A stretch of DNA of 64,000 nt, from assembly GCA_043228905.1 (NCBI GenBank), contig JBHGNT010000022.1:7998001-8062000 (forward strand), given 5' to 3'. The notes beneath the pieces were generated by a model. The model had not been told where the DNA came from. It searched no databases and saw only the letters and a list, made by a program, of their open reading frames with translations. The DNA is from Azolla caroliniana (Eukaryota > Plantae > Polypodiophyta). Positions 8,868 to 30,887 of this stretch are shown here, one piece after another; positions within the stretch are counted from its first letter, which is position 1; every line of letters starts with the position of its first letter. The position numbers and the translations under genes were made by a program.

Positions 8868-9991
8868 GGATTTGTACATAATAATCTCATTTGTAAAATT
8901 TTATAACTAATGGAAGAAGTTTTTCTTTTGGAAAGAAATAAAAATAAAAAATCAATGAATATTAATAAGATAATACATTCATACACGGGAGGGGTAATAA
9001 TTCATGACATTATGTTGAGAGAAAGGGGTATGTGGTGCAATATTCACATGGCTTCCATCAATGGATTATGTCCTCCACACATGTATTAGTATATAAAGAC
9101 ACATAGGTCCTCTCATTTAACATCTTATCCACAAACAATGTAAATTCAATTTCCTTCACTACTTTTTAAGCATTCCATATGGTGGAGAATGATAAACATT
9201 GACACCTTAAGATTACGACTTTTCACATACTCTTACTGTTCCCAAGTACCATAATTCTCATAAACATTGCCTCCACTTTCTCCCCCAAAAAATGTCTCCA
9301 AGAAGGGACAATAGAATATATATGATAATTCCTTCAGAAGACACAACTTGAGTGTAACCACAATGGTCGATTTCCATACTATTTATACTCATTGCTTTCA
9401 ATGTATATACAATTTTATAAATATGAATCATTATTCCAATGAATTCGTAGTTGTACTTATTGTGTTTAAAATTCGTAATACTACTAAATTCAACGAAGTC
9501 ACTCCTTTGTCCAGACTAATATGGACAACTACACCTCTAGTGTTAAGTTTATGGGGTTATTTGTTGTGCTTAATTTTTTCATGACTATTGAATTCAATGG
9601 AGTCAATCCTACGTCAGTGCTACATTGAACAACATATCACACTTGACTACTATGTGCTCGAGAGTCGAATACTGATGCAGGCCAGTCTTAATATAGATAT
9701 TCATATCACTATATGGAAGAATGTGAAAACGGATACTCAAGTCGGTCCCCAATTGTAGCTTTGGACAACATTTAACGTCACCATGTAGATGTACCTTCAT
9801 TTCTTTTAAAACAGATATCATGATGTGGAGATTATTACTTCCATGTTGAAACACACTACTACTCTCAGTTCGGTTTGGCAATAACCGATGTTACAATGTA
9901 GCTATATCACTCGATTCAATGCCCAAATTACTTTCCATCCCAATCACCCCAAAGCATGTCTCCTGGAAGCATCTCTCTTTGCTAATCATCC

Positions 9992-10138: not shown

Positions 10139-10257
10139 GTGACACAAGTACACTCAATGAACTAGCCGAAGTGCGAAGAGGATTAAGGGTTCTCTAACAA
10201 ATAAATACCCCATAAGTTGTGAGTGAGAACCATAATTTAACACCTTCAAAGAGAGCC

Positions 10258-10792
10258 ATGGTACTAGAGCTGGTCACGCCGGCGGCCCCCCGGAAGCCGC
10301 ACGTGCTACTTTTCCCGTTCCCAGAACAAGGCCACATCAATCCTCTCTTAGACATAGCCTTCCGGTTAAGCACACCCGGCATATTGTCCACGTTTCTAAT
10401 GCCTGCCCATTTCGCTACCCACCATGGCGAATCGGCACCCGAGGAAAACCTCCAGTTTGCCGCCTTAGACCTCCCGCCCGAGACCACCCATAAGTTGTTG
10501 GCCTGCGTAGGCTCGTGGAAGGCAACCTCTGAGATCTTGGCAACTCACTTCCTGGGTCCTCTCCGGAGCTTCATTCTCTCCTCCGCCAAGGCAAGTAGTG
10601 GCTACCATGACCTTCTTCCGCCCCCCCCTATTTCTTGCCTCATTTCAGACACTTTCATGCCATGGACGGTTGATCTGGCCAGTGATCTTGGCATCCCTCA
10701 TGTGGAGATGTGGACAGGCTCTGCATCCACTTATGTGTTCGGCTCCTCCATATTACAACTCATCTCAATGGGCATCTTACCCTTCAAACAAG

Positions 10793-10828
<36 letters not shown>

Positions 10829-11548
10829 TACATTTCATCCCATCTTCTATACATACATACTCAATTCTGATTCTTCTCCATCAGGCACACACGATTTCCC
10901 GCTGGACTTTGTGCCCGGCATCTTGACATCTAGATTGAGCCATCTCCCTATCCACACCCTCACAAACGAGGATCTCACTCGCCCAACTGAACAAGCCATA
11001 TTTTGATCTTTCGCACACGGCCGGCCCGATCCCAAATGGGTCCTCGTGAATTCCTTGCACGAGCTCAAGGCCGGGGCCATCGAAGCCTTGAGAGCGAAGA
11101 ATGTGAAAATCATGGCCATCGGCCCAACTCTAGGTGTGAGTCTTTGCAAGGACCTTGTGGATGAGACTCAACTCCAATGCTTGCGGTGGCTCGATTCTCG
11201 TGAAGAGAAATCGGTTGTGTATGTGGCATTTGGGTCGTTGGGATTCTTATCCGCGGAGGAGATACAAGAGGTAGCGGCCACATTGGAGGCAGTCGGCTGG
11301 CCATTCCTATGGGTGATTCACCAAGGATTGGCTACTGAATCGCTCCCGGAGAATTTCCGCCCCGGTCTCCTTCCAACGAAGAAAGGCCTCATAGTATCGT
11401 GGGCACCTCAAAGGCAAGTGTTAGAACACCGATCAATTGGAGCTTTTGTGACCCATTGCGGGTGGAATTCCTCGTTAGAGAGCCAGTGGAATGGGGTTCC
11501 GATGGTCGGGTGCCCTCGTATGGCGGAGCAAAACACGAACTTGTGGCT
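10258..11548 (+). pseudogene. family-1 UDP-glycosyltransferase pseudogene
   Basis: N-terminal PHVLLFPFPEQGHINP; GT-AG intron ~10792-10884 containing (CT)n; in-frame TGA at 11004-11006; full PSPG box WAPQRQVLEHRSIGAFVTHCGWNSSLES...AEQ; C-terminus replaced by LINE sequence after ~11548. Confidence 0.9.
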
Positions 11549-11569
11549 CAACCACACGATGGTCGGGTA

Positions 11570-12591
11570 CAACCACACGAGTGATAACACCTTAATCTCT
11601 CATGAGAACCGCAATAAAGTAATACGCCAAGAAATATGGCAAATTTACACTCGGTGTAAATGGATCCCCCACTAGAGCCACTCCCATCTAAAATGTCGTA
11701 CTATAAGAAACACTTCATGCACTTCTCTGAGTTAGGTTTTATCACACGGCCAAAATATCTAGATGTATTCTTACCACATGCACTAAGGGTTGCCATTGGA
11801 CAACTTAGAATATCATCTCACCAACTTTAGATTGAAAATGGCCGTACTAGTGGAGTCCCTAGGGAGGAAAGGATATGTAGGTCATGTCACATAGAGATAG
11901 AGGATGAGTACCACTTTACATGCAAGTGTCCAACCTATGCCGAGATAAGGGCAAAATACCAAGACATACTTGGTCCGTCTCCCACCCTCCCCAAACTATT
12001 AGATACTCTAGATATAAAGAAATTAGGCAAATACATTCTAGAGCTAAACCAACACAGAGAGAATAAATTACAAAATGTTGACAATAATGTTGCTAATGAT
12101 CACGAACATGTAACAAATGCAGTTTTTCAGGAACCTGAGGAGACAACGAATGCCGACACACTTGCACCACTCGGCCTTTCCATTGATGAGGCAGAAAACC
12201 AGAGAAGAACCAGACGTCCTCGGGTGCCGGGTTTCAAAGCAACTCAACGTGATGTGGAAGCAATATTGAAAATAAGGGAACGTGAGCTACACCGCCTAGA
12301 AGCCATGGCTAGGGCACTCTCTACATTGGAACCCACATCAAGACCCTTTGACCCCCCACTTCTTTTCGAGAGGCTTGGGTGGAAATAAAATTAGGCTTAG
12401 TGTATAGTCACTTTCGACTATACTACATATTGTACACTACTAGAACTCTTTTAGTTTAAGTTCTATTTTTTTTACTTAATTTTTTTTTTAGTTATGATGA
12501 CTGGATAAATACTCTATTGTTGTAAACCAATTGTCTCATGGGCCAAATTTGGCCTTAGAAGACGTTAATACATCTTTCTTTCTTCTTCTTT
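11570..12591 (+). mobile_element. 3' fragment of a non-LTR retrotransposon (RTE-X/L2-like C-terminal CCHC region)
   Basis: Translates to LRISSHQL*IENGR..PREERICRSC..EDEYHFTCKCPTY..IR; ends in (TTC/TTTC)n. A second short copy of the same 3' end lies at ~12825-12880. Confidence 0.7.
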
Positions 12592-12939: not shown

Positions 12940-15860
12940 AACACTACTTACAATGGGTGTGACCATGAATTATGGTCACCCACTAACTACACTACACTAC
13001 ATGGGTAATGGAACATGTTGAATTGCCAGTAGGCAAGACGAACATTCCCTCGAGGAAAGGATTTCCACTTGCTCCAATAAAGAAAATTGTCACATTAGTA
13101 CTCCCTTCAACTTTCGTAGATATGCTTTTACTCCATGTCTACCATCGAATACAAAAGTGTTGCGCATATTCCAATTATGACGCAATCCCCAATATCTCCA
13201 AAATAGAAAAACAATCTCCATCTCTGAGTTTGGGTCCACCTGTGTAAATTGTGCAAACACCCACTGTCTAGGTGTCAAATAACACCGTGATAAATCTTGC
13301 CAAATTTGAGAAATGTAACTCCAAATCTGAGAAGCAATCAGGCATTGTATAAATTGATGAGTACTATCTTCCATTTGAATAGTGCAAAAAAAGCAATTAC
13401 CCATTGCTAGTCCACGACGCTTTAGAGCTAATCCCAAAGCCAATCCTCGAATCAAAACTCTCCAAATGAAGACCTTTGCTACAAGTGGCAATTAAGAATG
13501 CCAACTATGTTATAAGATTTGCCACCACCCATAATTAGATTTGTGTAATCTCCATTCTTCTTCAACCTTAGATGATAACCATCCAAGAGACTCAATAGAG
13601 CAATGATACAAAAGATTAGTAGTCACTTGCATCAATGGAATATTTCATAGCTGTTGCCAAATAAACCTATAATTAGGCGGAATGCGTAATAATTGTCGTG
13701 CTTCAACAAACTCCAAAATTCTTTGAGATGGAGCCTCACCTATATCTCCCACCTCTTTGACCCCCTAACGAAACAAATGATTAAATTGAGAGCGTAATCT
13801 CTCCTTTCCTGGCCAACATAATAACCGAGAAGACACAAGTAACTCTTTTTGCAAAGAATTACAATGCTCTCTACTAGATGATGGTTTCCATACACATAAC
13901 AAGGGTGCTTCTTGCCATGAGGTAACCAAGTGTTCAACACATGTAGAGCCCGGAATCCTAAGTGAAAGACATCCATTTAGTAATTGCCACCATGAACCCT
14001 TAATTGTTGTCCTCCCATGTGTTAAACCCTTGTTCTCAATGAAATATTGAACAATAGATATACATGGTTGTGAGTTTGAACACATGTCTTGTAATAATGA
14101 ACATCTACGAGCCATCATATGCTTAGATAAGTTCAATACTCCAGCTCCCCCCAAGCGCATAAGAGTTGCTAGATGATTCCATGCAACCCAAGTGATTCCC
14201 ATCTTATCCCTTTTCTTCCACAACAAATATCGAAGAGGTCGCAAAATAGAATGCAAAGCCTTCTTTGTGCACGGCAGCAATGGCAAGTAATATAATATCA
14301 TAGGTTCCATAATACATTGTACAACCTTAAAACGTACATGAAATGGCCAAGATTGTGATTTCCAATACATGAACTTATCCCTCAACTTACTAGACATCCA
14401 TTCAATCAATTGACCATTTCCAACATTCATTCCTAATGGATAGCCCAAGTGTCGAAAAATAGAGCCTTTCTTCACCACGGATCCTTGCCATCCTAAACAT
14501 TCCAAATCCCTTTCAGTACATGATATGAGACTAGACTTCCTCCAATTAATATGTAATCCGGAAGCCAATGAAAATTGGTTCCATACAAGCATCCCCTTTT
14601 CAAGATTTTCTTGTGAGGCTTGTAGAAACATGAAAGAATCATCAGCCAAAGCTTGTGCAACTAGTTTCCCTCCAGACGGAAAGTGTAGACCCACAATATC
14701 ACCACTTGTTGTGCCAAGCCTTGATAGCATCACTAACAAGGGATGAGTAACAATAGCAAACAACAACGGGCTAATAGGGCATCCTTGACGAACTGATCTT
14801 GTAAGTGCAATATCTTATGTAAATCCTCCCTTAAGTATGACTTGAGACACCGCATCTTGTCCTAATAAAAATATGAGGCGAGACGTACAAGGTCCAAAGC
14901 CCATTGTATGCATTAACCCAAAAACAAAGGACCAATTAACATGATCATAAGCTTTCTCCAAATCTAATTGCACCATAATCAATTCTTGATGAGTGTTTCG
15001 AGCATAATCCATAGTCATTTGAACATTCAACACATTATGCAATATATTCCTACCTGCAATAAAACCATATTGGGCGGGATGTATCAACCTTGGCAAATAC
15101 TTTTGTAATCTATTTACCAAGATCTTTGGAAATATCTTATACAACCCCCCCATCAAAGAAATAGGTCTCCATTGATGAAATGACTCTAGAGATGCCACCT
15201 TTGGTACTAATTTAATTAGACCAACCTTCCAAGCTTTAGGCATACGACCAGAATCCCAAGAATGTTGAAACATCAAAGTTAAGGGCCCCTTTAAAATGTG
15301 TGAATATCGCTTAAAAACTTCATTTGTCAAGCCATCCCAACCAGGGCTCTTACCACTAGTAAGATGCCTTAAAACTTTGTCCACCTCATCCTAAGTGAAA
15401 TCCGCATCCAATTCATGACTAATGAGGTCATGCACAATACATCCAATCACATCATAAAATTCATGACGTGCTCTACTCACCTCATTTGTCATCAACAATT
15501 GTGGGCCAATCAACTCCTTAAAGTAATGAACACATATGTCAATTATTTTAGTAGGATCCACTATCCATTCATCACCTTGCTTCACATGTACCACATTAGA
15601 TCGAGTATAAGTAGGATGTAACACTTAGAAAAACAAATGGGATTGGCATTGATTATCTATGAGCCCATGCCTCAATTGTCGCATCTTCGCATAACAATAA
15701 CTTTGGCATTGCAATTGAGAAATAATAACATGCAATTGACTTTGGATATCCAAAAACTCCTCATCTAAAGGTGCACCTATCAATAATGCATTACACCTAG
15801 AGAGAACTTGTGAGAATTTTAGAAGAAGACCTCTTCTTCGTTGAGCATTAGTTACTACAT
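12940..15860 (-). mobile_element. 5'-truncated L1/Tx1-like LINE ORF2 (RT, zf-RVT), degenerate
   Basis: GKSPGWDG, WRPISL, QYGFIAGR, LDLEKAYD, VRQGCP, LADD and C-terminal CFFC..H...C across broken ORFs; ends approximate. Confidence 0.85.
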
Positions 15861-16250
15861 CCATACGATAAACGATCTTAATATTTCGTAATAACACGTT
15901 CGCGTTCACAAGTGGAAGGATCGCGCGTAAATGGAAGGATAAGGGAAATTTTAGGGGTTTTTCAATGATTTTACAAAACACATTGATACCAGTATCATAC
16001 ATGTTCAAACATACTATGAAAAAGGTTAAAAATCCACTATTTTCGTGATTTAGAAGTAACTAAAAAAAGACGAATTTCAAAAAGATACATTCTCAATTTA
16101 TATCACAAACTTCACAACCAATGTTATTTTATAAGAAACAATTTTTTAGAAATCATAAGAATTCAAAACACATGATTTTATATTACTCGATTTGTTACAA
16201 GCGGAATGTAGTTACACTTAATAGCCAAATATACATTCATGATCACTCCT

Positions 16251-19031
16251 TTACGGAGAATCACTACTATAACTAATATACAATGACGATTCCTCCTCAT
16301 CATCCTCGGATGTACCAATCAGTGCATTATCTTCGTCATAAACCAAATGGTTTGACTCTAGATTATATGTAGCAGATCTCGTTTGCCTTTGACTCGAGCC
16401 ACCTTGTAGACCTAGTAATTTTTCTTTTATTATATCTATTGTTGACTTCCTTAATTGTCCGGCTTTTGTAAGTGTGAAGTCGTACACGATGATATCCACA
16501 TCAGAGATATCAAGGGTCGAGGTGTTACGAATGTTTCGCTTCCTCTTCCTACCTCCCCTTCTTGTTTGGCATTCAATCATCTCCAATGTATACTTACCTG
16601 TAAAAGCATTTGCACTTCTAGTGTTGTACCAATGAACATTTATAGACTTGATCGTGTTTTCTATTTCATGCATTAGCACTTCTAGAATTTTACCAACCCA
16701 AAATTGGTGGCCATGTGAGTTCTCATCAGCCGGCGTTGCAATCAACATCCCCGCGGTGAGTTCTTGCAAATTTCCTTGCCATCTAGCTTTGGCTGCTTTG
16801 GTCATCCTTGGTCCCACATAAATGTCTCTTTGTTGTGGATGGACCAAGCTGTCATTAATTGCATTTACTAGTTGCTCCGGACTTCTATTTACGCGATCAT
16901 GTTGCAACGACCATGTGAATGGCGTTTCCAAATTCCAATTATCAACAGATACACAATTGTCTATAATTTCTTTCTGATCACTATAAAATACATCCCACCA
17001 TGACGTGTCTTGTTGTGCGGCATATTTCTTGGCGGCCTCAATATGCTTTCTTTTTTCTTCTAAGGCTTGGAGCCATGACCGTTTTTGTTCTGATACCAAG
17101 TCGCTCTGCAACTGTCCTTTCTTCTCAATTGGCATTTGCTTAGCTCCATGGACAATTGTACTCGACATACAAAGTAACAACTGGCAACCACCTTCAGGTT
17201 CCCATGTTGTAGAAGATGAATATTGTTTGGCATACAAAAGTGTAGAACCACTTATTCCATTTTTCTTTATCAAAAAAATGTGATTGAAACTTATATTGTT
17301 TAACTGAGCAAGCACTTTAACATTCCCACCACCCCCATCTAATATATATCTCTTAAAGTCATATACCTCCTTCAAGTGTAACACTTTTGGGCGTAGTGTA
17401 TAAGCATCACAAATGACATCAAATAGTTTAGGTAAAGTGAAAGCATCATGCCGAGACAACTGTCTGGAGAATGTGCTAAACATCTGATCTATATGGTCAT
17501 GTGTGTGACCAACCAAAAGGAAATTGACTTTCACTTTCCTAAACAATTCTAGGTTTACCAACATACTTAGATAGGCAAATACAGTTGAATTTTTGTTCTC
17601 TCTAGCAGTATTGTCCAATTGATTGTATAGAACAGGGGGGAAAGGTTGTCCCCAAGACATCAAAACTCGGTGAATCACTGTAACTGTTAGGTTAGGGTCA
17701 TTGTGAACATTGGGGTAAGTAATGAAGACGTGAGGTCGAACAGACCTATTATAAGCCAAGCATCCCACCAAGTGCATTTGAACAAGGCACTCATCATTGA
17801 CATCTTTGGGGAGCCTCCGCATATGCGGCAAGCATGTCTTCTTCTGGTCCATGCCATCTATCATTAAGCACATGTATTGTTCGGGCCTCTTCAAACACTT
17901 CTCTCTATGATGCATCGCCTTCCTTCGTTCTAAGGATTGTGCCTCACGATGCTCTTGTAGTAACTTCTTACTCGTATCCTTTTCCATTGATGTCTTTGCA
18001 CCTTTAGCCAAAATTTTAAGATTTGCACAAATGGAGCAATACCCCATACGTACTTTACGAGGAATAATAACATTTGAAAACCGAGCTCTCCATAATCTTG
18101 TGAATTGGCTATATGTGATCGACTTATTACGTGAGCCCAGCATATCAGATCGATAGACATCATAAACTTCCCGACGTGTATAATTATCAGAAAGATGCAT
18201 CCTACCTGTAGTGGGCATTATTTCACAATTTAACTGAAAGTAAGTTTTCATCCAGCCAATAGCTAGTCTTCCAATTGCACCTTTCATACTTGGAACCTCT
18301 TTACAATTGAGCATCTGATCCCCGCTAAGTAGACCTTGTTGTACTCTATGTAGCCGCATGTTACTAACACATAACGCAATTTTGAATGCAACTCTACATA
18401 TCTGTTGCGCATGGAAGATATAATACTCGAATGATACTTTGATCCCCGTACATTTGTCAGATACTAGTTGCATATGTGACCCGAGGTAAGTGTCTTGCTC
18501 ATCATCGGTCATCGAAAAATAGTATTGCCTTAATTCTCGCAACTTTGATTTTCCAATCATAGACATACAACCACGGGCACAACATATTTTGTTGACATCA
18601 AATCCAATCTGTTTATCTGATGTCACCAAGCTAAATCTAGCTAGACGAATTCTTCGTGGGATTCTTCTAATATGCATAGGGCTCCCAGATTTCTCTTCCT
18701 GCATAGAGGTTGGTGTAACATTGTTACAGTCTAATTCTTTGCTGTGACCATCGCCAATGTTATTCAAGGTTTCCTGGGCACTTCCTTCATTCTCGGTATC
18801 TTTATTAATATCGTTTTCTTCAATAGAGAACTCTTCACATGTGTCATTATGTACATTCCCTGTAGATGAGCTCAGACAATATTCTTCGATAGAATATGGT
18901 GAGTCGGTCGACAGACAATATTCTTCAATCGAATATGGTGACTCTGATGCCAAACAATACTCTTCAGTAGAAAACGATGGGTCTGATGACAAACAATATT
19001 CTTCAATCGAGAACGGTGAATCTTCACTCAT
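16251..19031 (-). CDS. DDE transposase, Sola1-like/DUF7869-type, 926 aa, intact ORF
   Basis: Cys clusters (CC...C, C..AF, CSIC), LMIDGMDQ, QLDNTARENKN, FLLVGHTHDHIDQMFS; lies inside the TIRs; C-terminal SH3-like barrel (FWVGKI...VHWY) and acidic tail. Confidence 0.85.
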   Translation of the reverse strand: MSEDSPFSIEEYCLSSDPSFSTEEYCLASESPYSIEEYCLSTDSPYSIEEYCLSSSTGNVHNDTCEEFSIEENDINKDTENEGSAQETLNNIGDGHSKELDCNNVTPTSMQEEKSGSPMHIRRIPRRIRLARFSLVTSDKQIGFDVNKICCARGCMSMIGKSKLRELRQYYFSMTDDEQDTYLGSHMQLVSDKCTGIKVSFEYYIFHAQQICRVAFKIALCVSNMRLHRVQQGLLSGDQMLNCKEVPSMKGAIGRLAIGWMKTYFQLNCEIMPTTGRMHLSDNYTRREVYDVYRSDMLGSRNKSITYSQFTRLWRARFSNVIIPRKVRMGYCSICANLKILAKGAKTSMEKDTSKKLLQEHREAQSLERRKAMHHREKCLKRPEQYMCLMIDGMDQKKTCLPHMRRLPKDVNDECLVQMHLVGCLAYNRSVRPHVFITYPNVHNDPNLTVTVIHRVLMSWGQPFPPVLYNQLDNTARENKNSTVFAYLSMLVNLELFRKVKVNFLLVGHTHDHIDQMFSTFSRQLSRHDAFTLPKLFDVICDAYTLRPKVLHLKEVYDFKRYILDGGGGNVKVLAQLNNISFNHIFLIKKNGISGSTLLYAKQYSSSTTWEPEGGCQLLLCMSSTIVHGAKQMPIEKKGQLQSDLVSEQKRSWLQALEEKRKHIEAAKKYAAQQDTSWWDVFYSDQKEIIDNCVSVDNWNLETPFTWSLQHDRVNRSPEQLVNAINDSLVHPQQRDIYVGPRMTKAAKARWQGNLQELTAGMLIATPADENSHGHQFWVGKILEVLMHEIENTIKSINVHWYNTRSANAFTGKYTLEMIECQTRRGGRKRKRNIRNTSTLDISDVDIIVYDFTLTKAGQLRKSTIDIIKEKLLGLQGGSSQRQTRSATYNLESNHLVYDEDNALIGTSEDDEEESSLYISYSSDSP

Positions 19032-19883
19032 GGCTTAAGGTCTAGATAGGGCTCTCTAAGTTATGGGCTTAGGGGAAAGAAAAAAACTAATAAGCTCCTC
19101 TCTAAACATATACTCCTCTCTAAACATAAACTTCTCTCTAAACAAAAGCCAAATCAATAGAATGTCTATATTATGTAATATTCTATTAATACAATACATC
19201 AAAAAATTATTTTTAATAAAGTAATTGTACTTAAAATATCAATTATTATATAAACTAGATCTATATAAAGTTAAATCAAGTAAAATATAAAACTAATCAT
19301 TAACAAGCCATGAATCTGTTGGATTAATGTTAAAATCATTGGCTAATTAATGGCACCCATTTTGATATAGAACGTCTCACTCATTGGTTCTTTAATGCTC
19401 ACCATTTTAAATATTAGACTTATCAATCATTGGTTAATTTATGCCCACATCTTTAATACACAACATTTGAGAGTCATAAAAATTGTTGGTTTTAGTAATC
19501 AATCATTGGTACATTCATGAACCTCTATCATTGTCTCATTCATAACCTTTGAAGTCATTGTAGGTTGTTATGACTATAAAAGATTGATCAATATGGTAGT
19601 TTGACTTTGTAATCATTAATACAATCATAAGTTTCTCTAGTTAATGTGGCTATGGTTACCAACTAACTATCCTCAAAGTTACCAACCTTGGTTAAGGTGA
19701 CTATGGTTACTTTAACCAATGTGTTCAATCCCTATAAATAGGAAGACCTCGTCATATTTCACTCACCAAAGCGTACAGAGCGTACAGAGCACACAGAACG
19801 TAGAGAGCACACAGAGCACACAAAGCACACAAAGCACAAAGCACGAAAGCGCGATCTCCGCCTCCACTTCCACACGATCAAAC
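19032..19883. promoter_or_regulatory. probable bidirectional promoter between transposase and ParB-MTase gene
   Basis: Divergent ATGs at 19031 (-) and 19884 (+); TATAAATA at 19733; repeated TCATTGG (inverse CCAAT) near 19337, 19381, 19428 and 19503; short tandem repeats in both putative 5' UTRs. Confidence 0.55.
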
Positions 19884-19968
19884 ATGTCTTCAAAGAGAAT
19901 CGAGCGCGAGGACTCCAGGTAGGCCTCTGACACTGTGGACATTTTTGTAAATATGTTTCGTTTCTCAA

Positions 19969-20198
19969 GAACTCGATACGCCGTATCGAGTTCATGTATA
20001 CAATACAAATATTTATACATGAACTCGATACGGCGTATCGAGTTCATAATTTAATTTTGCTTTTTATACAGGAACTCGATACGCCGTATCGAGTTCATGT
20101 TTAAAGTGTAGGTTTTAGACTGGAACTCGATACGCCGTATCGAGTTCCTGTTTAAAGTTTAGGTTTTAAATACGAACTCGATACGCCGTATCGAGTTC
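19969..20198. repeat. array of five perfect 25-bp palindromes GAACTCGATACG(C/G)CGTATCGAGTTC
   Basis: Copies start at 19969, 20021, 20072, 20123 and 20174, separated by 26-27 bp AT-rich spacers, inside intron 1 of the ParB-MTase gene. Confidence 0.95.
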
Positions 20199-21055
20199 CT
20201 GTATATAAGAAGGCTTTGAGAGAGAAAAATTGTATTTTTGGGGTAACAAATAATTTTGGGATGGAAAAGTTATCAAATTGTCTCGCAAAATCAGTCTTTT
20301 TATGTTGGCTTTCCTTACTTTAAAAAAAAAACATGCTCTAATTATAGGTGTTTTATGACCTACTTTAGCTTAAAATAGTAGAAAATGATCCACAAATTGC
20401 CTTTACGATAGCAAATTCTCGTCAATATAGGTTTGGAATCTATATAAGTCATACCTACTATTTAAAAGAATATATAACCCTTTTTACTTATTACGATATA
20501 TATTTTCTAGGTTGAATAGCCCTGCCTATAATAGATTTTTGAATATAGGACTGCTCTTGGGAACTGTTCTTCATGTTAATATACAACCTTAATCTACATG
20601 ACTACCTAACTTATGTTTTTGCATATACTTTCTTAAATAGGTCGTTTGAAAACCTGTCGGACCGACCGGTGAAGAAAATAAAGCTTCGCATACAAGGTTC
20701 TCCAATCGAAGCCCAGACCAAGGTAGCTCCTGAGACCATGAAGAGAGGAAAAAAGCTTCTCTTTAACGAAGAGACAAAATCTCAGCCACATAGTGATGTT
20801 AGCCAAAAGAAACTTGTCGCCGCTACTGGAGGTGAAGACCTTCTTGACCGAGATCTAACGGACAAGGAATGGTGTATGCAATATGTCGACTCAAAGAAAA
20901 AAGTCGTATTGTATACAGCAAAGAAGAAGGGTGAGGGGCAACTTGGAAAGGAAACCCCATTTATGTATGGCCGTATTCTACGATTTGACTACAAAGATGT
21001 AGATTCGGCCAACATACTGGGAATGATAGAGTGCTCCAAGGGGGTACGTAAAGTG

Positions 21056-24000
21056 TGTTGAGAACTCGACGTTCCTTATGTCCGACGCTCGGCCACAACC
21101 AAGATTCTTTACATACACAGAAAAACAGGTAATGAAACGCGACACAAAAGAGGAGAAATGGTGCACAGGAGGTATACGTGGAAAACCCCAAAAAATAGGG
21201 GAAAAACCACGGCAGCCCACAAGCTGCAAACTGTCACTATGCAGAAATATACAACAGTGAGATCGCTGAGGCAACGACCTCGTGCTCTCAGATCTTCGCC
21301 ACAGGTGGCGGTTACAACAGAGGCAACGACCTCGTCTCTCTCTCTCTCTCTGTACAGTTACGTGCTCTGATTTCTTCTTGCTCCAACAACAAAGAATCAC
21401 AACACCACACACACACTCCTCTCTCTCTCAAAACAAAACTAAAAGTTTGCCCTAAGTCATATTTATACTAATATGACTTTTCGGCTATTTACAAATGTAG
21501 CCTCGATGGGCTCCATCCGGCTCTCCGCAGTCGGGTACTCCCCGTCCGGCTCATACCGTTTCGGCCTCGGCCGAGTTTGTTCGTCGGTACTGTTCTTCTC
21601 CCTTCCCATCCGGAGGGACCTGTCTACCAACAAACTCCCCCTTCACTCCGGCATGGGGTGTCCTTCCAGCCCGATCCTCTTCCGGCATGCGTCCAGCTTG
21701 TCGAGTGTCAGCACTTTGGTCAGCATATCCGACCCGTTCTCGGCCGTGTGGATCTTCGCCAATGCGAACTCCTGGTCTTCTACCCTTTCCCGGATCCAAT
21801 GATACCTCCGCTGGATATGCTTCGTCCGGGAATGGTAGGCCGCATTCTTAGCAAGGTGGATGGCACTTTGACTGTCACAGTAGAGTCGGTATTCCTCTTG
21901 CCGGATACCGAGCTCTCCGATGAAGTCCTTCATCCATAATATTTCCTTGCCGGCTTCTACAGCCGCCATGTACTCCGCCTCTGTGGTTGACAATGCAACC
22001 GTCTTCTGCAGCCTGGACTGCCACGAAATAGCTCCCCCTGCATATGTCATCACATACCCGGATGTAGACCGGCTGGTATCCACATCAGCCGACATGTCTG
22101 AATCGGTGAAACCGTCCAGTTGAGGTTTTCCGGTGCCGAATCGGAGACACATAGTTGAAGTGCCCTTCAAATACCGGAGTATCCACTTGACCGCATTCCA
22201 ATGCTCCTTGCCGGGATTACTCATGAACCGGCTCACCACTCCGACTGCGTATCCAATGTCCGGTCGGGTACAAACCATTGCGTACATCAAGCTCCCGACG
22301 GCAGAGGCATATGGAATCTTCATCATATCTGCCTTCTCTCCTTTTGTCTTCGGGCTTTGCTTGCCGGACAACTTGCAGTTTGCCGGAAGTGTCGATCCGA
22401 CCGGTTTTGCATCTGACATGTTGAACCGGTGAAGCACCTTTGTCACATACTTCTCCTGTGACAGCCATAGTTGCTTCACTGACCGGTCCCGAATGATGTG
22501 CATCCCCAACATCTGTCTTGCCGGACCCAAGTCCTTCATTGAGAAGGTCCGGTTGAGAGCCTTCTTCAGCATCCGTATTTTTCCTTGGTCTCATCCGACG
22601 ATCAACATGTCATCCACGTACAGGAGGAGTATCATGAAGTCCCCTCCTTCGAACTTCTTCACAAACACGCAGTGATCGGCCTGCGTCTTGTGGTACCCTT
22701 GATCGGTCATGAAGGAGTCGAACTTCCGATACCATTGCCGGGGAGCCTGCTTCAGTCCGTATGGGCTCTTCTTCAACCGGCATACCAGGTGCTCCTTCCC
22801 TTTCTCCACAAATCCTTCCGGTTGCTGCATGTAGATCTCCTCTTCGAGGTCGCCGTGAAGGAATGCCGTCTTCACGTCCAGCTGCTCTACCTCGAGATCC
22901 ATGCTTGCTGCTATACTCAGCACCGTCCGGATGGAGGTCATCTTTACTACCGGGGCGAATATTTCGTCGAAGTCCACGCCCTTCTTCTGTTGGAACCCCT
23001 TCACCACGATCCTGGCTTTGTATCTCGGGGGGTTGCCGGCATCTCCCGGTTTCAACTTGAATACCCACTTGTTTCGGAGTGCCCGCTTTCCTTTCGGCAG
23101 CTCCACCAATTCGTACGTATGGTTCTCATGCAGGGAATCCATCTCATCCTGCATGGCACTTAACCATTTTCGGCTGTGGGTGTCAACCTTTGCTTCTTCG
23201 AAGCTTTCCGGCTCCCCCTCATCGGTCAGCAGGACATGCTCTGCATCCGGAAATCTCTGGGGCGCCCTTCTCTCTCTAAGAGGATATCTACGTCTTCGGG
23301 CTTCGGTAATCGGTTCCTCCATTTGCTCTTCATCCGAATCCGATTCGGGGTCTTGACCGGTTCCGGTCTCAGCTTCCTCTACTTCTTCTTCTGCCGGTTC
23401 GGTATCCTCACCGTAACCGGCTGGTTCCTCGAGTGCTAACCGGTCTCTTGCCGGTTGGGTCTGCTCATTGTAGAATCTATCCTTACCGGTCGACTCGGAG
23501 TTCATTATCTTCTTCTCCGACTCCCAGTCGGCGAGCGTCTTGTCCTCCCTGAAGATAATATCTCGACTCCGGAATACCTTCTTGTCGACCGGGTCCCACA
23601 CTCGGTAGCCGAACTCATCGTCACCGTAACCGAGGAATATGCATGGTCGGGTCTTTGGATCTAGCTTTCCTCTCCGGTCTTTTGCTACATGCACGTACGC
23701 GAGACACCCGAACACCCTCAGATGCCGGTAGGACACTTCCTTACCGGTCCATACTCTCTGTGGCGTGTCTCCGTCCAAGGGTACTGAGGGTGATCTGTTT
23801 ATCACATATGTCGCCGTCGATAGTGCCTCAACCCAAAACTTCTTGGGTAGTTTTGCATGCGCTAGCATACTCCGGACCCTCTCCATTATGGTCCGGTTCA
23901 TCCTCTCGGCCAGTCCATTTAGTTCCAGCGTCTTCGGCACGGTAAATTCGAGCCGGATTCCCTTCGAGCGGCAGTACTCCTCGAACTACCCCCGGTACTC

Positions 24001-26396
24001 ACCTCTGTTATCTGCTCGAACCGCCTTCAGCTTCCGACCGGTTTCTCTTTCCATTCTCGCGTGGAGCTCTTTGAAGACGGATAACACCTGATCCTTTGTC
24101 TTCAGCGGTGTGGCCCACAGCTTCCGGCTGTGGTCATCTATGAACGTCACGAAGTACTGCGCTCCGGCATGTGACTTCGTGTCTACTTGACAAACATCCG
24201 TATGCACCAACTCCAGTGGTGCATTACGTCTCATCGGTGGCCTTGGTCGGAAGGAGGTCCGGTTCTGCTTACCGGCCAGACAATCAGTGCACTTCTCTAA
24301 ATGCACGTTCTTCACTGGGATGAGGTTGTCGTCTGCAAGCCTCTTCATCCCCTTCTCACTCATGTGACATAGCCTCTTGTGCCACAGCTCACCGGCAGTG
24401 TCGGAAGCCACGTTCACTTCTTCCGGACATAACCGGGTATTCATCAAGTACAGTGTGTTTACCTTCCGGGCCCGAGCCACAATCAGGCTCCCTTTGCTGA
24501 ACTTCATGACACCGTTCCGGATGCTACCCGTGTAGCCTTCATCATCTAGCCGACCGACTGATATCAGGTTCAGACGAACTTTCGGAACGTGTCGGACATC
24601 TTTCAACAGCAATTTGCATCCGGTTGGTGTTGTCAGCCACACGTCTCCTATGCCGACAATTCGGCATGTTCCTTCATTCCCCATCCGGACACAGCCGTGA
24701 TCACCGGCTGAGTAGGATGAGAAGCATTTCCGGTCCGGGGTAAGGTGGAACGACGCTCCGGAGTCTACCACCCAGGTCATCTCATCGCCGGCATGGTTTA
24801 TCTCACTCTCCTCGGTGATGAGCATCAACTCCTCTTCACTTGCCGCAATTGCCGTCGTTCCCTTCCGGTCCGGCCCCCTCCGGTCTTTACCGTTCCGGTC
24901 TGTACCGTTCCGGTTCGGGGTTTGCTTCGAATCGGTACCGTCGGTTTCCTTGTCTTTACGGAAATGCCGACAGTTCTTTTGGAAGTGTCCCGGCTTGCCG
25001 CAATAGAAGCAAGTAGGCCTCCCCCTTGACTTTGATCGTGTCCCCGACTTCTCCCAGTTCTGGGGACTACGGTTTCTATGTCTTCCGCGTTCCGATTCGG
25101 TAAGGAGCGCTTTGGAGTCGGAGCTCGTATCTTTGTCTTTCCGACGAGCCTCCTCATCTAGCAAGCTCGACTTTACTCTTGCTAGGGATAACCGTTTTCC
25201 TTCCGGCCCGGCGTTGCCCAAAGTAACAACTAATGTCTCCCAGCTATCCGGGAGGGAACCGAGCAGGAGTAGCGCTAGGAGCTCATCGGCAAGAGGTACT
25301 TCCAATGACGTTGCCTGGTGGATCAGCCCCTGGAAGGCATTCATATGCTCCGCCATGCTGTGGCCATCTTGGTACCGGAGTCTTACAAGCTTCCGGAATA
25401 CCGACGCCTGATTGACAGCATTTTTGTTCTGGAACATCATGCCGATCTTCTCCCAGAGCTCATGAGCCTTGCTCTCTTCATTGAAGTTGTTGTACAGGCT
25501 CATGTCGATGAAGCACCGTATATACGCCGTTGTCTTCATGTGCATCACCTCCCATATCGCGGCGTCGATTTTGTCTGGTCTCTTGTCCCCGAACTGAACC
25601 GGCAGCCAGAGGTCTTTAACCACGAGCATGTCCCTCATCTTCGACTTCCACACTGAATAGTTGGAGCCGGTGAGCTTGAACATGCCGCCAAACGATTCGT
25701 CCATTTTCTGTGTCGATTTTGCTCTGATACCGCTTGTTGAGAACTCGACGTTCCTTATGTCCGACGCTCGGCCACAACCGAGATTCTTTACATACACAGA
25801 AAAACAGGTAATGAAACGCGACACAAAAGAGGAGAAATGGTGCACAGGAGGTATACGTGGAAAACCCCAAAAAATAGGGGAAAAACCACGGCAGCCCACA
25901 AGCTGCAAACTGTCACTATGCAGAAATATACAACAGTGAGATCGCTGAGGCAACGACCTCGTGCTCTCATATCTTCGCCACAGGCGGCGGTTACAACAGA
26001 GGCAACGACCTCGTCTCTCTCTCTCTCTCTGTACAGTTACGTGCTCTGATTTCTTCTTGCTCCAACAATAAAGAATCACAACACCACACACACACTCCTC
26101 TCTCTCTCAAAAAAAAACTAAAAGTTTGCCCTAAGTCATATTTATACTAATGACTTTTCGGCTATTTACAAATGTAGCCTCGATGGGCTCCATCCGGCTC
26201 TCCGCAGTCGGGTACTCCCCGTCCGGCTCTCCGCAATCGGGTACTCCCCGTCCGGCTTTCCGCAGTCGGGTACTCCTCATCCGGCTTTCCGCAGTCGGGT
26301 TCTCCCCATCCGGTTCATACCGTTTCGGCCTCAGCCGAGTTTGTTCGTCGGTACTGTTCTTCTCCCTTCCCATCCGGAGGGACCTGTCTACCAACA
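21056..26396 (-). mobile_element. full-length Ty1/copia retrotransposon (young, two frameshifts)
   Basis: LTRs 21056-21632 and 25735-26396; TSD AAGTG; PBS CGGTATCAGAGC (tRNA-iMet type); PPT AAGGGGGAG; gag-CCHC-protease(DSGA)-integrase-RT(YVDD)-RNase H split over three ORFs. Confidence 0.95.
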
Positions 26397-29300
26397 AAGT
26401 GTTCCTTTCAGAAGACCTTTTAGTAAAAGAATCTTGTAGGCCAGAAGTGTTCAAAAAAGCACTTGATAGCTCACAAAACCTTATTGTTACCTTGAGGCCT
26501 TATATACAAGGCCATGTAACTCTAAGAGATGAAGTGCCCTCCCCATTGAAGCCAACAAAAAAGGTTTCCAAAGTCCAGTCAAGACCAGCAAAGAAGAAGA
26601 CAACGAAAATGTCGGATACGGATTCAACAAGTGAAAATGAAGAGGAGGATAATAAGGGGACGCCAGGAGCTGAGCTGGCCTCGGGTGTTTTGTCATCCGA
26701 GCAGAATAAAATAAGGAGAGAGTTAATGCAACGGAAGCTGGTCAGGAAAGGGCAAGTATTTAATTTACCTATAACACACATCCATCGGCCCCCTATTGAT
26801 GAAAAAACAGGTCGAAGACCACTTGAGATTAGAGAGCCTCACCGAATGCATGTTCAAAATCTCAAGAAAAAAATGAAAATTAATCCTCATGCCACTGTGG
26901 TGCCTTTTATTGTTATGGTAGATCCTGAAGAATGTGAAACCATTGAAGATTTTGATATTAGAAAACATGATCAATATAATTATTTTGTCATTGGTGGATC
27001 GCATTCAGCAGAGGCACGTCGGCAACTTGTGAGAGAACATCCAACGACTTTCTTCTTCAAGTATGCCGAGTGCAAAATTTATGTTGGGCTCACCACCGAA
27101 GAGGCTAAGTTGTTGGCATGGGACCATAATAATGATAATGACTATAGGCAGAAAATGTCATCCATTGAGCGTATACGGTTCTTCTACCACGAGTATTTAG
27201 ATGTGAAACAAAAGTTTGGTGTGAAGTTACATCTAGGCCTTCGACGTCAATGTTTGCATGAAGTCGGCATTGTGGTAGATGATAATGTTAGGTCCGATGG
27301 TCTTCGAAAGTATGAGTCTTGGTTTCAATTGGCGTTTAGAGATGGAGAAGTATGGAACCTACAAGATCAAATCTTCTCAATGTGGGAGAATAAGGAGGTA
27401 AAGGGTCAATGACAAAAGAAATGTAGGGTTGACCCTCAACTAGAGTTAAAGTCACAAGCCGCCAAGAAAATTGACTTGACAATTGAAGAAGCGGCAGATG
27501 ACATGAAGTTGTCTCTATGGAGAGCGATGCAAGGTATTATGGACGAGCAGCTTCTTGTGTCGGTTTTGTCAAGGGTTGTGGCGAAAGATTTAAGCCTTGA
27601 AGAAATGGTCACTGAGTTCAATAAGTAAGTCCCTCAAATACTGAAATTGTAGTCTATCTAGTGTAATTCAAAGTTCTAATCTTGATTTCTAATTTTACAG
27701 TCATAAGGTGTACATGAAGATCCAAGAAGTTATGATGAAACAACTTGGATGTATAACTTGGGAACAAGTGACCGAGGATTATCCTCTAACGTCTTCGTAT
27801 AAGGCGTTATCAGAGTATTTTATTGCATTCAAGGATTGGGTTAGTATTCATGTTTTTTCATTACCCTTTCATCATATGTAGAGCTTGTATAATAATACCT
27901 GATGTCCTATTGCTTCTATTAGAAACCATGTCGAGGCAAGAAACAAGGAGAAGTTAAGGATATACACGATTTCCCTACATCCTTCCTTGCACATCTCGAA
28001 CGAGCCAGAAAAGAAAAGGATTGTCGCTTAGTCAAGGCGTACGAAATGGAGGAAGATGGCTCCTTTAAAAAATTTAGCCACAAAAAAGATATTACAAGAG
28101 ATCTTTACTATAATGTGGTTTGCGGTGATGTCATCGACTTGATCCAGAAGGTGCCAAAGAAGGAATATACGCTAATGATTGTGGATATTCCTTACGGATT
28201 TTGAATGGCTGGGTCATCATACGACGATGAACCGTTTAGGTTTAAACAATTGGAGAAGATGGTCAAGGATTTCGTTGAGCTAAAGACCGCATCCTTGTGG
28301 CGAATAGTTGTCTTTCATAGTATGGACCAAGGGTACTCGGTAGCTCAAGCTTTGAGATCTCGTTGCCATTGCATCGAGAACCTTGCATGGTAAGGATTAT
28401 TTATAGGTGTCTTTCACTATATTGCATTTCTTAAGGTTGTTGAATCTATTCTTAACTCGATGTATTATTTTTTATAAGATCAAGACCAATGTAAATAGAG
28501 GGCCAACTTTTCGGTTCGTTAATGCCATTGAATACATAACGGTTGGCTACTTCGATGAAATTAAGAAACAGAGAATCAAAGAGCATTCTAATGAAGTGGG
28601 AGGTTCAAATCTATTAGTATATCCAGCAGTGACTCGGAAATTGCGACATGTCACCACGACAGAACGGGGACTTGTCAACCCATACCAAAAACCTCAACGA
28701 CTCATGATGCGCTTGATCGAGATGTTTTCTGTCGAAGGAGACTGGATATTAGATCTCTTTTCTGGCACAGGTATTCCTCGAACTAGGGTAACGATTTTGA
28801 GATAACCAATCACTTTTTTTTCGTTTGACAACTAAATCTTCTTGTTACTTACATCACAGGAACTACGTTAGCATGTGCATTGAAGTTGTTTAGAAATACA
28901 GTTGCATTGGAGAAGGACGAGGACCAAGTTATATTTATTAATATGCGGATTAAGGCTTTGTGGGAGTGCCCAGACCAGGATGAGGAGGTCGGTGCAAAGA
29001 ACCTCGCCAATACAGAAAGGTTTCAACCTGCTTCGCGAGAGCCTATTCCTCTGTTAGCCGGCGAACCGGGGGAGCTAATAGAGCTTGATGATGAGCTTAT
29101 AGAAGATATTTCGTTGGCTCGGCTAATAGGGGAAACCAATGCATGTATAGCCGAAGACAGTTCTACACAAGATGATGAAGAAAATGACGTTGATGAATTG
29201 ATTGCTATGTAATAGACTCTATGAAGAATATGACACTGACGATTTGTTAAGATTTCACATTATTAATACAAATATTGGGTTTTACCTAGTGGATTCTATT

Positions 29301-30326
29301 CTTTATAATCTTCTATATGTTTCAATTTTATTTTTATATACTTGATTAGTAGATTTATGACATTGGTTTCACCACGTGCATAGCTGACTACCAAACTTAT
29401 GGAGAAACATGAACTAGTTTAAATGGAGGCTGATTTTGGTCCAAGCTAACCTTAACAGAACATGGCCCTATAATTGTTGCCATGGCTGTCCATGTTGTTA
29501 TTATGGATCTTTGTCTTCTATTGTTAAAACTATTATGTTTCTATTCCATTGCTGCTTAGATTGTGTAGTGTGTTGATAATGGTTCCAGTTGCGTTATCGT
29601 TCAGAGTTTGATCTTGTGTGAATCACCTAAGCAATAGAGTAGACCAATTTTAAATACATGTACGAAAGTCTAATAGGTTTGTTATTTCCACGACATTATC
29701 CTAAAGTTCACTGCCTTACATTGTGCACAATTATATACACATATGGTTTGATCTCATATGAACAAACTGAGGAATAGATTAGATCAACTTTAAATACAAG
29801 TATTGAATACTTTAATAAGTTAGTTGGAAGCAATCACTTATCCTAATGTGCACTATCCTACATTTTCCACAATTACATACATGCACGTATGGGTCAAAGT
29901 ATAAATTATATCTCATTTTATTAGTATGGATACAAGTACACCTCATATTTTTGTAAAACTTACCTAATTAATATAAGTCTTTAAGTTAGTGTTTCCCTTG
30001 TCACACAGTAGTGCCATATTGAGCCATAGTTGAACTTTATTATGCCTACATTAACTTATCAACATGTCTAAACTTACATGATTTCTAATGATCTCCACTC
30101 GTAGATCTATCATGTATTTTTATATTTGGAAATTCTCATCAAGTTGAGGAACATGTGATACTAGTGCATCCAATTTTTTTAGAGAGGGTGTATTTGCTTC
30201 GTTTTAAGAAGATTCTACAAGTGGAATGCGCAATCCTTCCACTTGTGAACGCGAACGTGTTTAATGTGATATCCCATGCTTTAACTCCTTTAAGATTCAC
30301 TTCTTGTGAAAAATTTACCAAAATTT

Positions 30327-30367
<41 letters not shown>

Positions 30368-30887
30368 TTTCTATTTTTCAGTCTTTAGTTGTAAAGTCAC
30401 AATTATATGATTAATAAATGTGTAGTGTTTTTTGGTGATCTCTATTTTCCTTTATTTGAAGAAAAGGCACAATTATGTTAATAAATGTGTGTAAAAGTGA
30501 TCACTATCGATGTTGGGCAAAGTTTTTTACCTCTACTGACAAATGTTCCCTACTTCTAATTAACCTAACTAGATTTTAAAAATTCTAACCGGCCATTTTC
30601 ATATGAGTAATCATATCATTCGGATCTTCTTGAAATTGAAAAAAATATTCATCACATTTAAAATCATATAACATGAACATTCATAGGAAAATTGGTAAAA
30701 TATTGATACCATTTATAACGAAGTTCACCATTTAAAAGAAAATTACTACACCATATTGAAACATCACGAATCATATTGAACGTTACATATCATAACAAAC
30801 ACGTTTGCGTTCAGAAGTGGACGGATCACACATTCGACTTTTAGATTCCTTTTATAATTGTGCAAATTTATGCAATATATAGAAAAC

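What the first reader, a model, noticed from the sequence alone, without database searches (positions are those of the whole stretch)
15893..30261. Plant DNA transposon carrying its own ParB-fused, prokaryote-type DNA amino-methyltransferase
Seen: TIRs and a 4-bp TSD enclose an intact DDE transposase and a divergently oriented, intron-containing gene. Its spliced product has a ParB/Srx-like N-domain and a beta-class MTase (catalytic DIPY before SAM-binding FxGxG, plus W.K and HPxQKP-like motifs). Established: 4-bp TSDs and DN..N.N/GHT motifs fit Sola-type transposases; beta-class N6A/N4C MTases are bacterial/phage enzymes; ParB-MTase fusions occur in prophage loci; eukaryotic N4C MTases in bdelloid rotifers and Marchantia came by horizontal transfer. 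Inference: a two-gene mobile system that writes 6mA or 4mC, perhaps to mark its own ends, regulate transposition or counter host 5mC silencing. I know of no description of Sola-type elements with such cargo.
Basis: partly seen in the sequence, partly recalled or inferred. Interest (0 to 1): 0.97.

Follow-up and report, generated by a model that had tools for sequence, protein, structure and literature searches.

The report
Fern transposon carrying ParB-methylase and palindromes
This is a real, many-copy jumping gene, likely from a fern, whose family keeps a strongly conserved bacterial-type DNA methylase gene and an evenly spaced row of palindromes that the protein likely binds to mark its own DNA; the design is already published for a brown alga, and the methylase gene of this copy is broken.

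Summary
34-bp TIRs and a TAAT duplication enclose a 926-codon Sola1-like transposase and a divergent seven-exon, 974-codon gene with a ParB-fold domain and a beta-class amino-methyltransferase (DIPY before DLFSGTG). The finding omitted two things. First, this copy's cargo is dead: a 5.3-kb copia insertion, two stop codons and a lost splice acceptor. Second, intron 1 holds five palindromes 51-52 bp apart. In related contigs, 11 of 11 long loci carry both genes divergently, and the catalytic motifs are invariant in 31 of 31 stop-free copies (dN/dS about 0.03). The palindrome recurs in 21 of 24 loci with symmetric changes and spacings phased to the helical turn. The novelty claim fails: Ectocarpus Sola1-1_Ec32 was published with the same ParB-methyltransferase cargo and the same self-marking idea (PMC12477816), and ParB-like cargo beside inverted-repeat arrays was reported in red algae. 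I found no paper on a land-plant version or on this site. Best reading: a dimeric protein binds its own array and writes 6mA locally; binding, activity, target base and effect are untested. This scan already reported the family on other pieces of this genome and in other genomes. New member of a known kind.

The parts
15889..15892 (.). Left target-site duplication TAAT
   Evidence: the empty site with one TAAT is seen in 10 contigs of run X8 (loose end before 30262, 25 of 30 letters match the left flank printed, counted by eye)
15893..15926 (+). Left TIR (34 bp, begins AACAC)
   Evidence: related TIRs matched in 17 of 80 loci
16251..19031 (-). Sola1-like transposase ORF, 926 aa; motifs DGMD (aa 392), LDN (472), GHTHDHID (508); open frame but 13 private changes at otherwise invariant columns
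   Evidence: Sola1 profile compared by eye
19032..19883 (.). Spacer between the two divergent start codons, the likely shared promoter region; holds 4 copies of a 22-nt repeat with an ATCATTGG-like core and 9-nt tandem repeats
   Evidence: D10, D7; promoter role inferred from position
19884..19918 (+). Cargo gene exon 1 (predicted; its intron was not tested for conservation)
   Evidence: ATG, GT donor, frame joins exon 2
19969..20198 (.). Array of five palindromes (core TCGATAC-N3-GTATCGA at 19973, 20025, 20076, 20127, 20178), 51-52 bp apart, in predicted intron 1
20641..21055 (+). Cargo exon 2, 5' part (N-terminal region), cut by the copia insertion
   Evidence: contigs of four runs continue from 21056 straight into the 26402 sequence (loose ends)
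21056..26396 (-). Nested copia LTR retrotransposon, 5-bp duplication AAGTG, LTRs 21056-21632 and 25735-26396 (6 mismatches in 575 aligned bases); not part of the family's structure
   Evidence: the copia label rests on recalled gene order and motifs of the ORFs
26402..27624 (+). Cargo exon 2, 3' part: ParB/Srx-fold domain (about aa 255-400, GGSH at 348) and helical region; premature TGA at 27410
27701..27839 (+). Cargo exon (helical linker)
27923..28389 (+). Cargo exon with catalytic motif IV DIPY (28184); premature TGA at 28202
28478..28770 (+). Cargo exon with W-x-K, PYQKP and start of motif I (DLFSGT); its acceptor reads AA in this copy and AG in 31 of 31 related copies
28860..29212 (+). 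Last cargo exon: end of motif I, EKD, acidic tail, stop
30228..30261 (-). Right TIR
   Evidence: 45 contigs of X2 leave the stretch at 30261 with unlike flanks (agreement 0.4)
30262..30265 (.). Right target-site duplication TAAT

Best explanation
This is a decayed copy of a many-copy, Sola1-like cut-and-paste transposon family, likely of a fern, whose conserved second gene encodes a ParB-fold, beta-class amino-methyltransferase that likely binds, as a predicted dimer, the helically phased palindromes in its own first intron and likely writes N6-methyladenine on the element's own DNA, which would help keep the two divergent genes expressed against host 5mC silencing. Shown: element anatomy, mobility, linkage of the two genes, purifying selection, invariant catalytic motifs, ParB fold, conserved and phased palindromes, and the lesions of this copy. 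Inferred: that the protein is an active enzyme, that it binds the array, that the base is adenine, and that the outcome is activation. This copy could be served only in trans by intact copies.
For: Linkage: 11 of 11 loci with 2.5 kb or more upstream of exon 2 carry a divergent transposase, down to 51% identity. L028 is a complete 7,724-bp element with its own 4-bp duplication, TGTT. Selection: codon-model dN/dS 0.024 (ParB), 0.034 (helical), 0.032 (MTase) over 31 stop-free loci, against 0.079 for the transposase core over 13 sequences; pairwise medians 0.038, 0.036, 0.049 and 0.086. DIPY, PYQKP, DLFSGT, EKD and GGSH are invariant in 31 of 31; 195 of 195 splice sites tested are kept. Folds: the window's ParB region (pLDDT 85) matches Noc and ParB best (E 9e-5 to 8e-4) and PadC and KorB (Z 9.7, rmsd 3.0, 99 aligned; Z 9.0, rmsd 2.4, 94 aligned). 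The full-length homologue P0059 matches the N6-adenine enzymes CcrM, M.BceJIV and M1.HpyAVI best (E 5.5e-12 to 6.6e-10). Array: present upstream of exon 2 in 21 of 24 loci; 137 of 145 sites lie there; 0 in 20 shuffles. A position outside the search pattern varies (T 17, C 14, G 10) yet stays symmetric in 40 of 41 loci. The 106 spacings cluster at 31-32, 40-41, 50-52, 63, 72 and 102-105 bp, best period 10.2-10.3. Dimer model of the L002 ParB region: 0.56 against a best control of 0.00, contacts agreeing 44% or more, pLDDT 71 or more; the mark was reached by 21 of 30 solved pairs and 0 of 23 single chains (microbes), 17 of 29 and 0 of 30 (eukaryotes), and ParB dimers are solved, so the pass may come from memory. 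D-first motifs mark N6A enzymes and SPPY marks N4C enzymes (PMC8885841).
Against: Nothing here measures methylation, DNA binding or expression. The ParB phosphate motif GxxR, needed for nucleotide binding (PMC12704722), reads GGSHS here, so a CTP clamp is doubtful. The fit of a helix-turn-helix is weak: the wide structural search aligns mostly the N-domain. This copy shows host-type decay: 10 of 21 listed private transitions are at CG sites, which are few (77 CpG in 3,012 nt), so copies likely do get 5mC-methylated. DIPY is not the canonical DPPY, and the bdelloid N4C enzyme also matches the fold (E 9e-9). Some distant homologues lack motif IV in their gene models (P0071 Riccia, P0165 Ptychodera), so binding rather than catalysis may be the core role. 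The related loci are assembled contigs, many likely consensus of repeats, and dS is large, so dN/dS values are approximate. L039 has a transposase fragment downstream of the cargo gene instead.
Confidence: 0.5

Rival explanations
1. Same protein and same array, but the array is an operator: binding and methylation damp the cargo gene and the transposase, limiting transposition to a level that the host tolerates.
For: The array lies inside the cargo's own first intron, under 1.2 kb from both start codons. KorB, a plasmid repressor, is among the best structural matches. Phased sites suit a cooperative repressor complex (inference).
Against: The family reached many copies (5,534-8,974 contigs laid per run on a 5.4-kb stretch that includes 190 bases of repeated flank; not a copy number). 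A repressor would not need an invariant catalytic site.
Confidence: 0.2
2. The enzyme writes N4-methylcytosine on the CpG-rich palindromes, blocking host 5mC at those cytosines.
For: The invariant half-site letters CGAT hold a CpG in 41 of 41 loci. Beta-class folds include N4C enzymes (8s9o and 1boo). The closest bacterial relatives of the bdelloid N4C enzyme recognise TCGA, which is the half-site core in 32 of 41 loci.
Against: Motif IV begins with D in 31 of 31 copies, not S. The best sequence and fold matches are N6-adenine enzymes.
Confidence: 0.13
3. The array serves another factor (the transposase, a host protein, or intron RNA hairpins), and the cargo protein acts elsewhere, for example at element ends, genome-wide or on RNA.
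For: No direct link between protein and array was tested. Palindromes keep symmetry for hairpins too. Many related contigs break at the array, so its full extent is often unseen.
Against: Spacing at whole helical turns across subfamilies fits double-stranded DNA binding better than RNA hairpins. ParB proteins bind inverted repeats, and ParB-like cargo sits beside such arrays in red algal elements. Rfam gives no match.
Confidence: 0.14
4. The gene is a passively captured passenger with no role for the element.
For: All cargo copies seen in this window are broken; 9 of 41 near-full loci carry stops.
Against: dN/dS about 0.03, lower than the transposase; invariant motifs and splice sites; the gene and transposase trees share their well-supported clades.
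Confidence: 0.03

Closest known systems
Sola1-1_Ec32 of the brown alga Ectocarpus (PMC12477816; passages, reference entries and supplement rows seen, figures not seen)
   Same: Sola1 element with 4-bp duplication; accessory gene on the strand opposite the transposase; 1,104-aa product with a ParB-like domain and an N4C/N6A methyltransferase; proposed to bind and modify its own element. Termini AACCG there, AACAC here. Its best transposase match is the moss element Sola1-1_PPa.
   Different: Land plant (likely fern) host; 9.0 kb without the nested copia (7.7 kb in L028) against 21.5 kb; 34-bp TIR against 282 bp; many subfamilies. The passages seen report no palindrome array, selection test or fold. 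Sequence homology to the Ectocarpus protein was not tested (sequence not fetched).
Plavaka (EnSpm) accessory genes PAG2 and PAG3 of red algae (bioRxiv 10.1101/2025.02.11.637652; passages seen, supplements closed)
   Same: Transposon cargo with PF01555 methylase and ParB-like domain; tandem arrays of inverted repeats beside the ParB-like gene, proposed as its binding sites.
   Different: Two separate genes there (methylase-SET; ParB-oxygenase) on another superfamily; one fused gene on Sola1 here.
VANDAL/VANC anti-silencing system of eudicots (seen only as described in the passage)
   Same: Transposon accessory protein that binds its own element to counter silencing.
   Different: VANC induces hypomethylation; here a bacterial-type writer is predicted. 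No homology was tested.
Eukaryotic 4mC writers: bdelloid N4CMT (PMC8885841) and Marchantia DN4MT1 (bioRxiv 10.1101/2021.02.12.428880); passages seen
   Same: Permuted beta-class amino-methyltransferase of bacterial type in a eukaryote.
   Different: Those are host genes with SPPY/TSPPY motifs and no ParB domain in the passages seen; this one is transposon cargo with DIPY.
ParB-fused 'chlorophyte-type Dam' family and phage ParB-terminase-locus methyltransferases (PMC4738411; passages seen)
   Same: ParB-type domain fused to an amino-methyltransferase in eukaryotes, traced to phage loci.
   Different: That family is placed in the M.EcoKI/M.TaqI-like group, while this one has the permuted beta order. 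The ParB region here hits no PHROGs or NCBIfam family, so descent from phage fusions is not shown.

Membership tests
Sola superfamily (Sola1) | 4-bp target-site duplication | tested here: met
   TAAT/TAAT in the window, TGTT/TGTT in L028; not seen at L067. Feature from PMC10741241.
Sola superfamily (Sola1) | Terminal inverted repeats | tested here: met
   34 bp; termini AACAC against AACCG in Sola1-1_Ec32.
Sola superfamily (Sola1) | Sola1-type DDD transposase core | tested here: inconclusive
   By eye against two parts of the published Sola1 profile (PMC5751038 supplement): the second motif fits (profile D-n-c-a-g-q-N-k-n; here DNTARENKN); the first fits with two extra residues (profile D-l-q-k-v-l-s-l-P; here DGMDQKKTCLP). 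The third motif was not compared and no profile score was run. Pfam gives only DUF7869.
Sola1 elements with ParB-methyltransferase cargo (Sola1-1_Ec32 type) | Accessory gene opposite the transposase, inside the TIRs, encoding ParB-like plus N4C/N6A methyltransferase domains | tested here: met
   against the passage
Sola1 elements with ParB-methyltransferase cargo (Sola1-1_Ec32 type) | Common descent of the cargo with the Ectocarpus protein | not tested
   The Ectocarpus sequence was not fetched; none of the 10 hits looked up by name was a brown alga.
Beta-class amino-methyltransferases (PF01555) | Catalytic motif IV before SAM-binding motif I | tested here: met
   DIPY at 692, DLFSGTG at 852; invariant in 31 of 31
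Beta-class amino-methyltransferases (PF01555) | Profile and fold match | tested here: met
   Window exon 35.8 bits, cut-off 26.7. The fold was tested on homologue P0059 (29% identical to the model over aa 270-888), not on the window's own split domain.
Beta-class amino-methyltransferases (PF01555) | SAM-dependent methylation of DNA | not testable with these tools
   needs an assay
N4-cytosine methyltransferases (N4CMT, DN4MT1 type) | SPPY catalytic motif | tested here: not met
   DIPY in 31 of 31; rule
ParB/Noc CTPase clamps | ParB/Srx fold | tested here: met
ParB/Noc CTPase clamps | Box II GxxR phosphate-binding motif | tested here: not met
   GGSHS in fern-type copies, GG-x-H-(S/T) in most distant relatives; motif
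ParB/Noc CTPase clamps | Central helix-turn-helix that reads a palindromic site | tested here: inconclusive
   A helical domain follows the ParB fold. Foldseek alignments to Noc and ParB run 190-245 columns at high rmsd; the wide search aligns mainly the N-domain.

The most novel reading that the evidence does not exclude
A vascular-plant transposon family encodes its own parS/ParB-like address system: a dimeric ParB-fold reader loads on a helically phased palindrome array inside the element and a fused bacterial-type writer lays down 6mA there, an element-private epigenetic mark that opposes host 5mC silencing. It would be a defined enzymatic source of locus-specific DNA amino-methylation in land plants, with the binding site now named (CGATRC-N3-GYATCG).
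Probability: 0.35. Interest if true: 0.85.

Novelty: new member of a known kind. Interest (0 to 1): 0.52.

Why it matters
The idea that transposons bind and chemically mark their own DNA with ParB-methyltransferase cargo is in print for algae but, in the passages seen, rests on domain predictions alone. This family supplies what a test needs: many subfamilies, an invariant catalytic motif under strong selection, and a specific 17-bp candidate site in a phased array. If the mark is real, it would be a transposon-borne source of 6mA or 4mC in a land plant and a second route, beside VANDAL/VANC, by which elements act on their own chromatin. It could also give a compact, site-targeted DNA writer.

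Tried and rejected
No whole genome is held for this window, so copy number, the share of intact copies and TIR-bounded counts could not be measured; run depths are not copy numbers. Expression: no RNA holder listed; the one run guessed to be RNA laid nothing; neither is evidence. Prokaryotic or viral close relatives of the ParB region: 34 and 61 pattern matches, none confirmed. Phage records match only the methyltransferase part of P0059, weakly (301 records, none covering 80% of the query). No tree against phage enzymes was built, so origin is open. Pfam, PHROGs and NCBIfam do not recognise the ParB region; the Atlas gave one ParB_N cluster at rank 25 (score 0.92, family on 35% of members), a lead only. 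The profile from alignment A1 was swollen by the long Chara protein (1,156 positions), so its hit counts are not used; hits were rechecked by BLASTP. Protection of array CpGs from deamination: all 20 core CpGs are intact in the window, but against a background of roughly 6-7% per cytosine (my estimate) this is not significant; dropped. Covariation of site type with the protein's helical region: inspected by eye, no clear pattern; L032 and L033 mix two site types in one array. A first exon model had wrong offsets and was corrected. Rfam: no match over 19000-20700. Bao et al. 2009 and the journal version of the Bostrychia paper are not held; Iyer et al. 2011 was seen only as a reference entry, and it may already list green-lineage cases. 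Literature searches for a land-plant description or for this palindrome; none found in the listings, but subscription journals and Repbase are not covered, and bioRxiv supplements are closed.
Full report
Observation. The element runs 15893-30261. It has 34-bp TIRs and TAAT on both sides. The minus strand carries one 926-aa ORF that matches DUF7869. A 5.3-kb LTR retrotransposon (21056-26396, duplication AAGTG, LTRs differing at 6 of 575 aligned bases) splits exon 2; without it the element is 9,023 bp. The cargo also has TGA at 27410 and 28202 and an AA acceptor before 28478. These lesions are private. In runs X2 and X8 nearly all depth at 28202 and all listed depth at 28477 shows the functional letter (40 of 91 rows shown, 27410 not among them, but homologues have a residue there). 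Contigs of all four runs laid continue across the copia site without it. The transposase frame is open but differs at 13 of 297 otherwise invariant columns, so it may be decayed too.

Mobility. In run X2, 45 contigs leave the stretch exactly at the right TIR with unlike flanks. In X8, 10 contigs join the left flank directly to a single TAAT and the right flank, which is the empty site (flank compared). The window itself holds two more relatives: a broken cargo gene on the minus strand (50927-32120, split by about 15 kb of insertions, TIR at 30798) and a transposase at 63955-61976, 57% identical. The nearest named relatives are from Ceratopteris richardii (64% for the ParB region, 54% for the transposase) and Adiantum nelumboides, so the host is likely a fern.

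Family. A metagenome scan gave 132 relatives among 539 pattern matches; the best 80 were kept. All 11 loci with at least 2.5 kb upstream of exon 2 carry a divergent transposase, at 51-70% identity (loci whose match starts after residue 100 were left out of this count). L039 departs, with a transposase fragment downstream. L028 is a complete 7,724-bp element with a TGTT duplication. Of 41 loci covering over 85% of the core, 32 have no stop; 31 were used further (L011 lacks the last exon). In these, DIPY, PYQKP, DLFSGT, EKD and GGSH are invariant and 195 of 195 tested splice sites are kept (intron 1 and one acceptor not tested). Codon-model dN/dS is 0.024 for the ParB domain, 0.034 for the helical region, 0.032 for the methyltransferase and 0.097 for the N-terminus, against 0.079 for the transposase core. 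Pairwise estimates agree. Many contigs are likely repeat consensus and dS is large, so the values are approximate. Trees of the two genes from 12 sequences share their well-supported clades and differ at weak nodes. More distant ParB-plus-methyltransferase proteins occur in Ginkgo, Chara, Riccia, an amoebozoan transcriptome and an acorn worm; their genomic context was not examined.

Folds. The window's residues 247-486 fold with pLDDT 85 and match Noc and ParB first, and PadC, KorB, a pNOB8-like ParB, SerK and sulfiredoxin in the wide search (Z 9.7 to 7.6). The methyltransferase is split over three exons, so it was folded through homologue P0059 (pLDDT 79), which matches CcrM, M.BceJIV and M1.HpyAVI first and N4C enzymes lower; sequence searches agree. 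The ParB GxxR motif (PMC12704722) is replaced by GGSHS. A two-copy model of the L002 ParB region scored 0.56 against a best control of 0.00, with contacts agreeing at 44% or more and pLDDT 71 or more; the mark was reached by 21 of 30 solved pairs and 0 of 23 single chains in microbes, 17 of 29 and 0 of 30 in eukaryotes, and solved ParB dimers may explain the pass.

The array. Intron 1 holds five palindromes, 51-52 bp apart. The pattern YCGATRC-N3-GYATCGR, defined after seeing the loci, occurs 145 times in 330,552 bases of loci, 137 of them within 1.5 kb upstream of exon 2, and never in 20 shuffles; 21 of 24 loci with 700 bases or more of upstream DNA have it. With one site per locus, C-G-A-T and the inner C are fixed by the pattern, while a flanking position outside the pattern is T, C or G and still symmetric in 40 of 41. 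The 106 spacings from 25 loci peak at a period of 10.2-10.3 bp among periods of 9-13 tried; the 28 distinct values alone gave a phase score that none of 20,000 random draws reached (period chosen after inspection, and related arrays are not independent). This points to a protein that binds several sites on one face of the helix.

Mechanism. Shown: a mobile two-gene unit whose cargo is selected harder than its transposase, with an invariant catalytic motif, a ParB fold and a conserved phased array. Inferred: the cargo protein binds the array as a dimer and methylates nearby DNA. The D-first motif favours adenine (PMC8885841). The array lies within 1.2 kb of both start codons, so the likely effect is on the element's own expression; activation against host silencing is my lead reading (0.5), repression the main rival (0.2). 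Against full escape from silencing, this copy's private transitions are rich in CG sites (10 of 21 listed).

Prior knowledge. PMC12477816 (passages, references and supplement rows seen) describes Sola1-1_Ec32: 21.5 kb, 4-bp duplication, a 1,104-aa ParB-like plus N4C/N6A methyltransferase gene opposite the transposase, proposed to bind and modify its own element. The Bostrychia preprint (passages seen) reports methylase and ParB-like cargo genes on Plavaka elements with inverted-repeat arrays beside the ParB-like gene. PMC4738411 (passages) lists ParB-fused methyltransferases in chlorophytes and chytrids. Sola1 is listed for moss (passages). Searches listed no paper on a land-plant version or on this site. 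This scan's index holds 10 notes with these words in at least 3 genomes, three of the eight shown from this genome; they are unchecked and are not counted as support.

Verdict. Real feature, correctly described in outline, broken in this copy, and a new member of a recently described kind. Its value lies in making an untested published idea testable with a named site and a conserved enzyme. Interest 0.52.

Noticed in passing
window 30798-50927 (minus strand): Second, diverged copy of the cargo gene (46-85% identity by segment, many stops, DIPY changed to NIPY) with a TIR at 30798, split by about 15 kb of nested insertions; no transposase, array or second TIR found for it in the window.
   Followed up: partly
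window 61591-64000: Third family member: transposase 63955-61976 (57% identity, one stop) with a likely TIR of another subfamily near 61591; it runs off the window.
   Followed up: partly
window 18873-19023: 39-nt tandem repeats encode an acidic (S-x-E-E-Y-C-L) repeat at the transposase N-terminus (D6).
   Followed up: no
window 19331-19519: Four copies of a 22-nt repeat with an ATCATTGG-like core, 45-76 bp apart, in the spacer between the divergent genes; CCAAT-box-like on the reverse strand (label recalled) (D10).
   Followed up: no
window 29606-29881: Two diverged copies of a unit of about 140 bp between the cargo stop and the right TIR (D11 and D12).
   Followed up: no
L011:5225-5450: A palindrome array of another subfamily's type lies downstream of the cargo gene, perhaps a nested or neighbouring element.
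   Followed up: no
L039:4033-6332: Transposase fragment and TIR downstream of the cargo gene on the same strand, unlike the usual layout; nested element or misassembly.
   Followed up: no
window 10216-11675: ORFs that look like a UDP-glycosyltransferase gene (HCGWNS motif; family label recalled, no search run).
   Followed up: no
window 61470-61515: Short run of TTTAGGG-like repeats, the plant telomere unit (label recalled), just outside the third element's end.
   Followed up: no
window 13765-15390 and 15700-15892: The element sits next to reverse-transcriptase-like ORFs (LINE-like; label recalled), and its left flank is itself a many-copy repeat in the runs.
   Followed up: partly
proteins P0071, P0165, P0144, P0137: Distant homologues (Riccia, Ptychodera, an unnamed one, Clastostelium) keep the ParB-like and methyltransferase-like parts but show no (D/N/S)-x-P-(Y/W/F) motif in their models; pseudo-enzymes or gene-model gaps.
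   Followed up: partly
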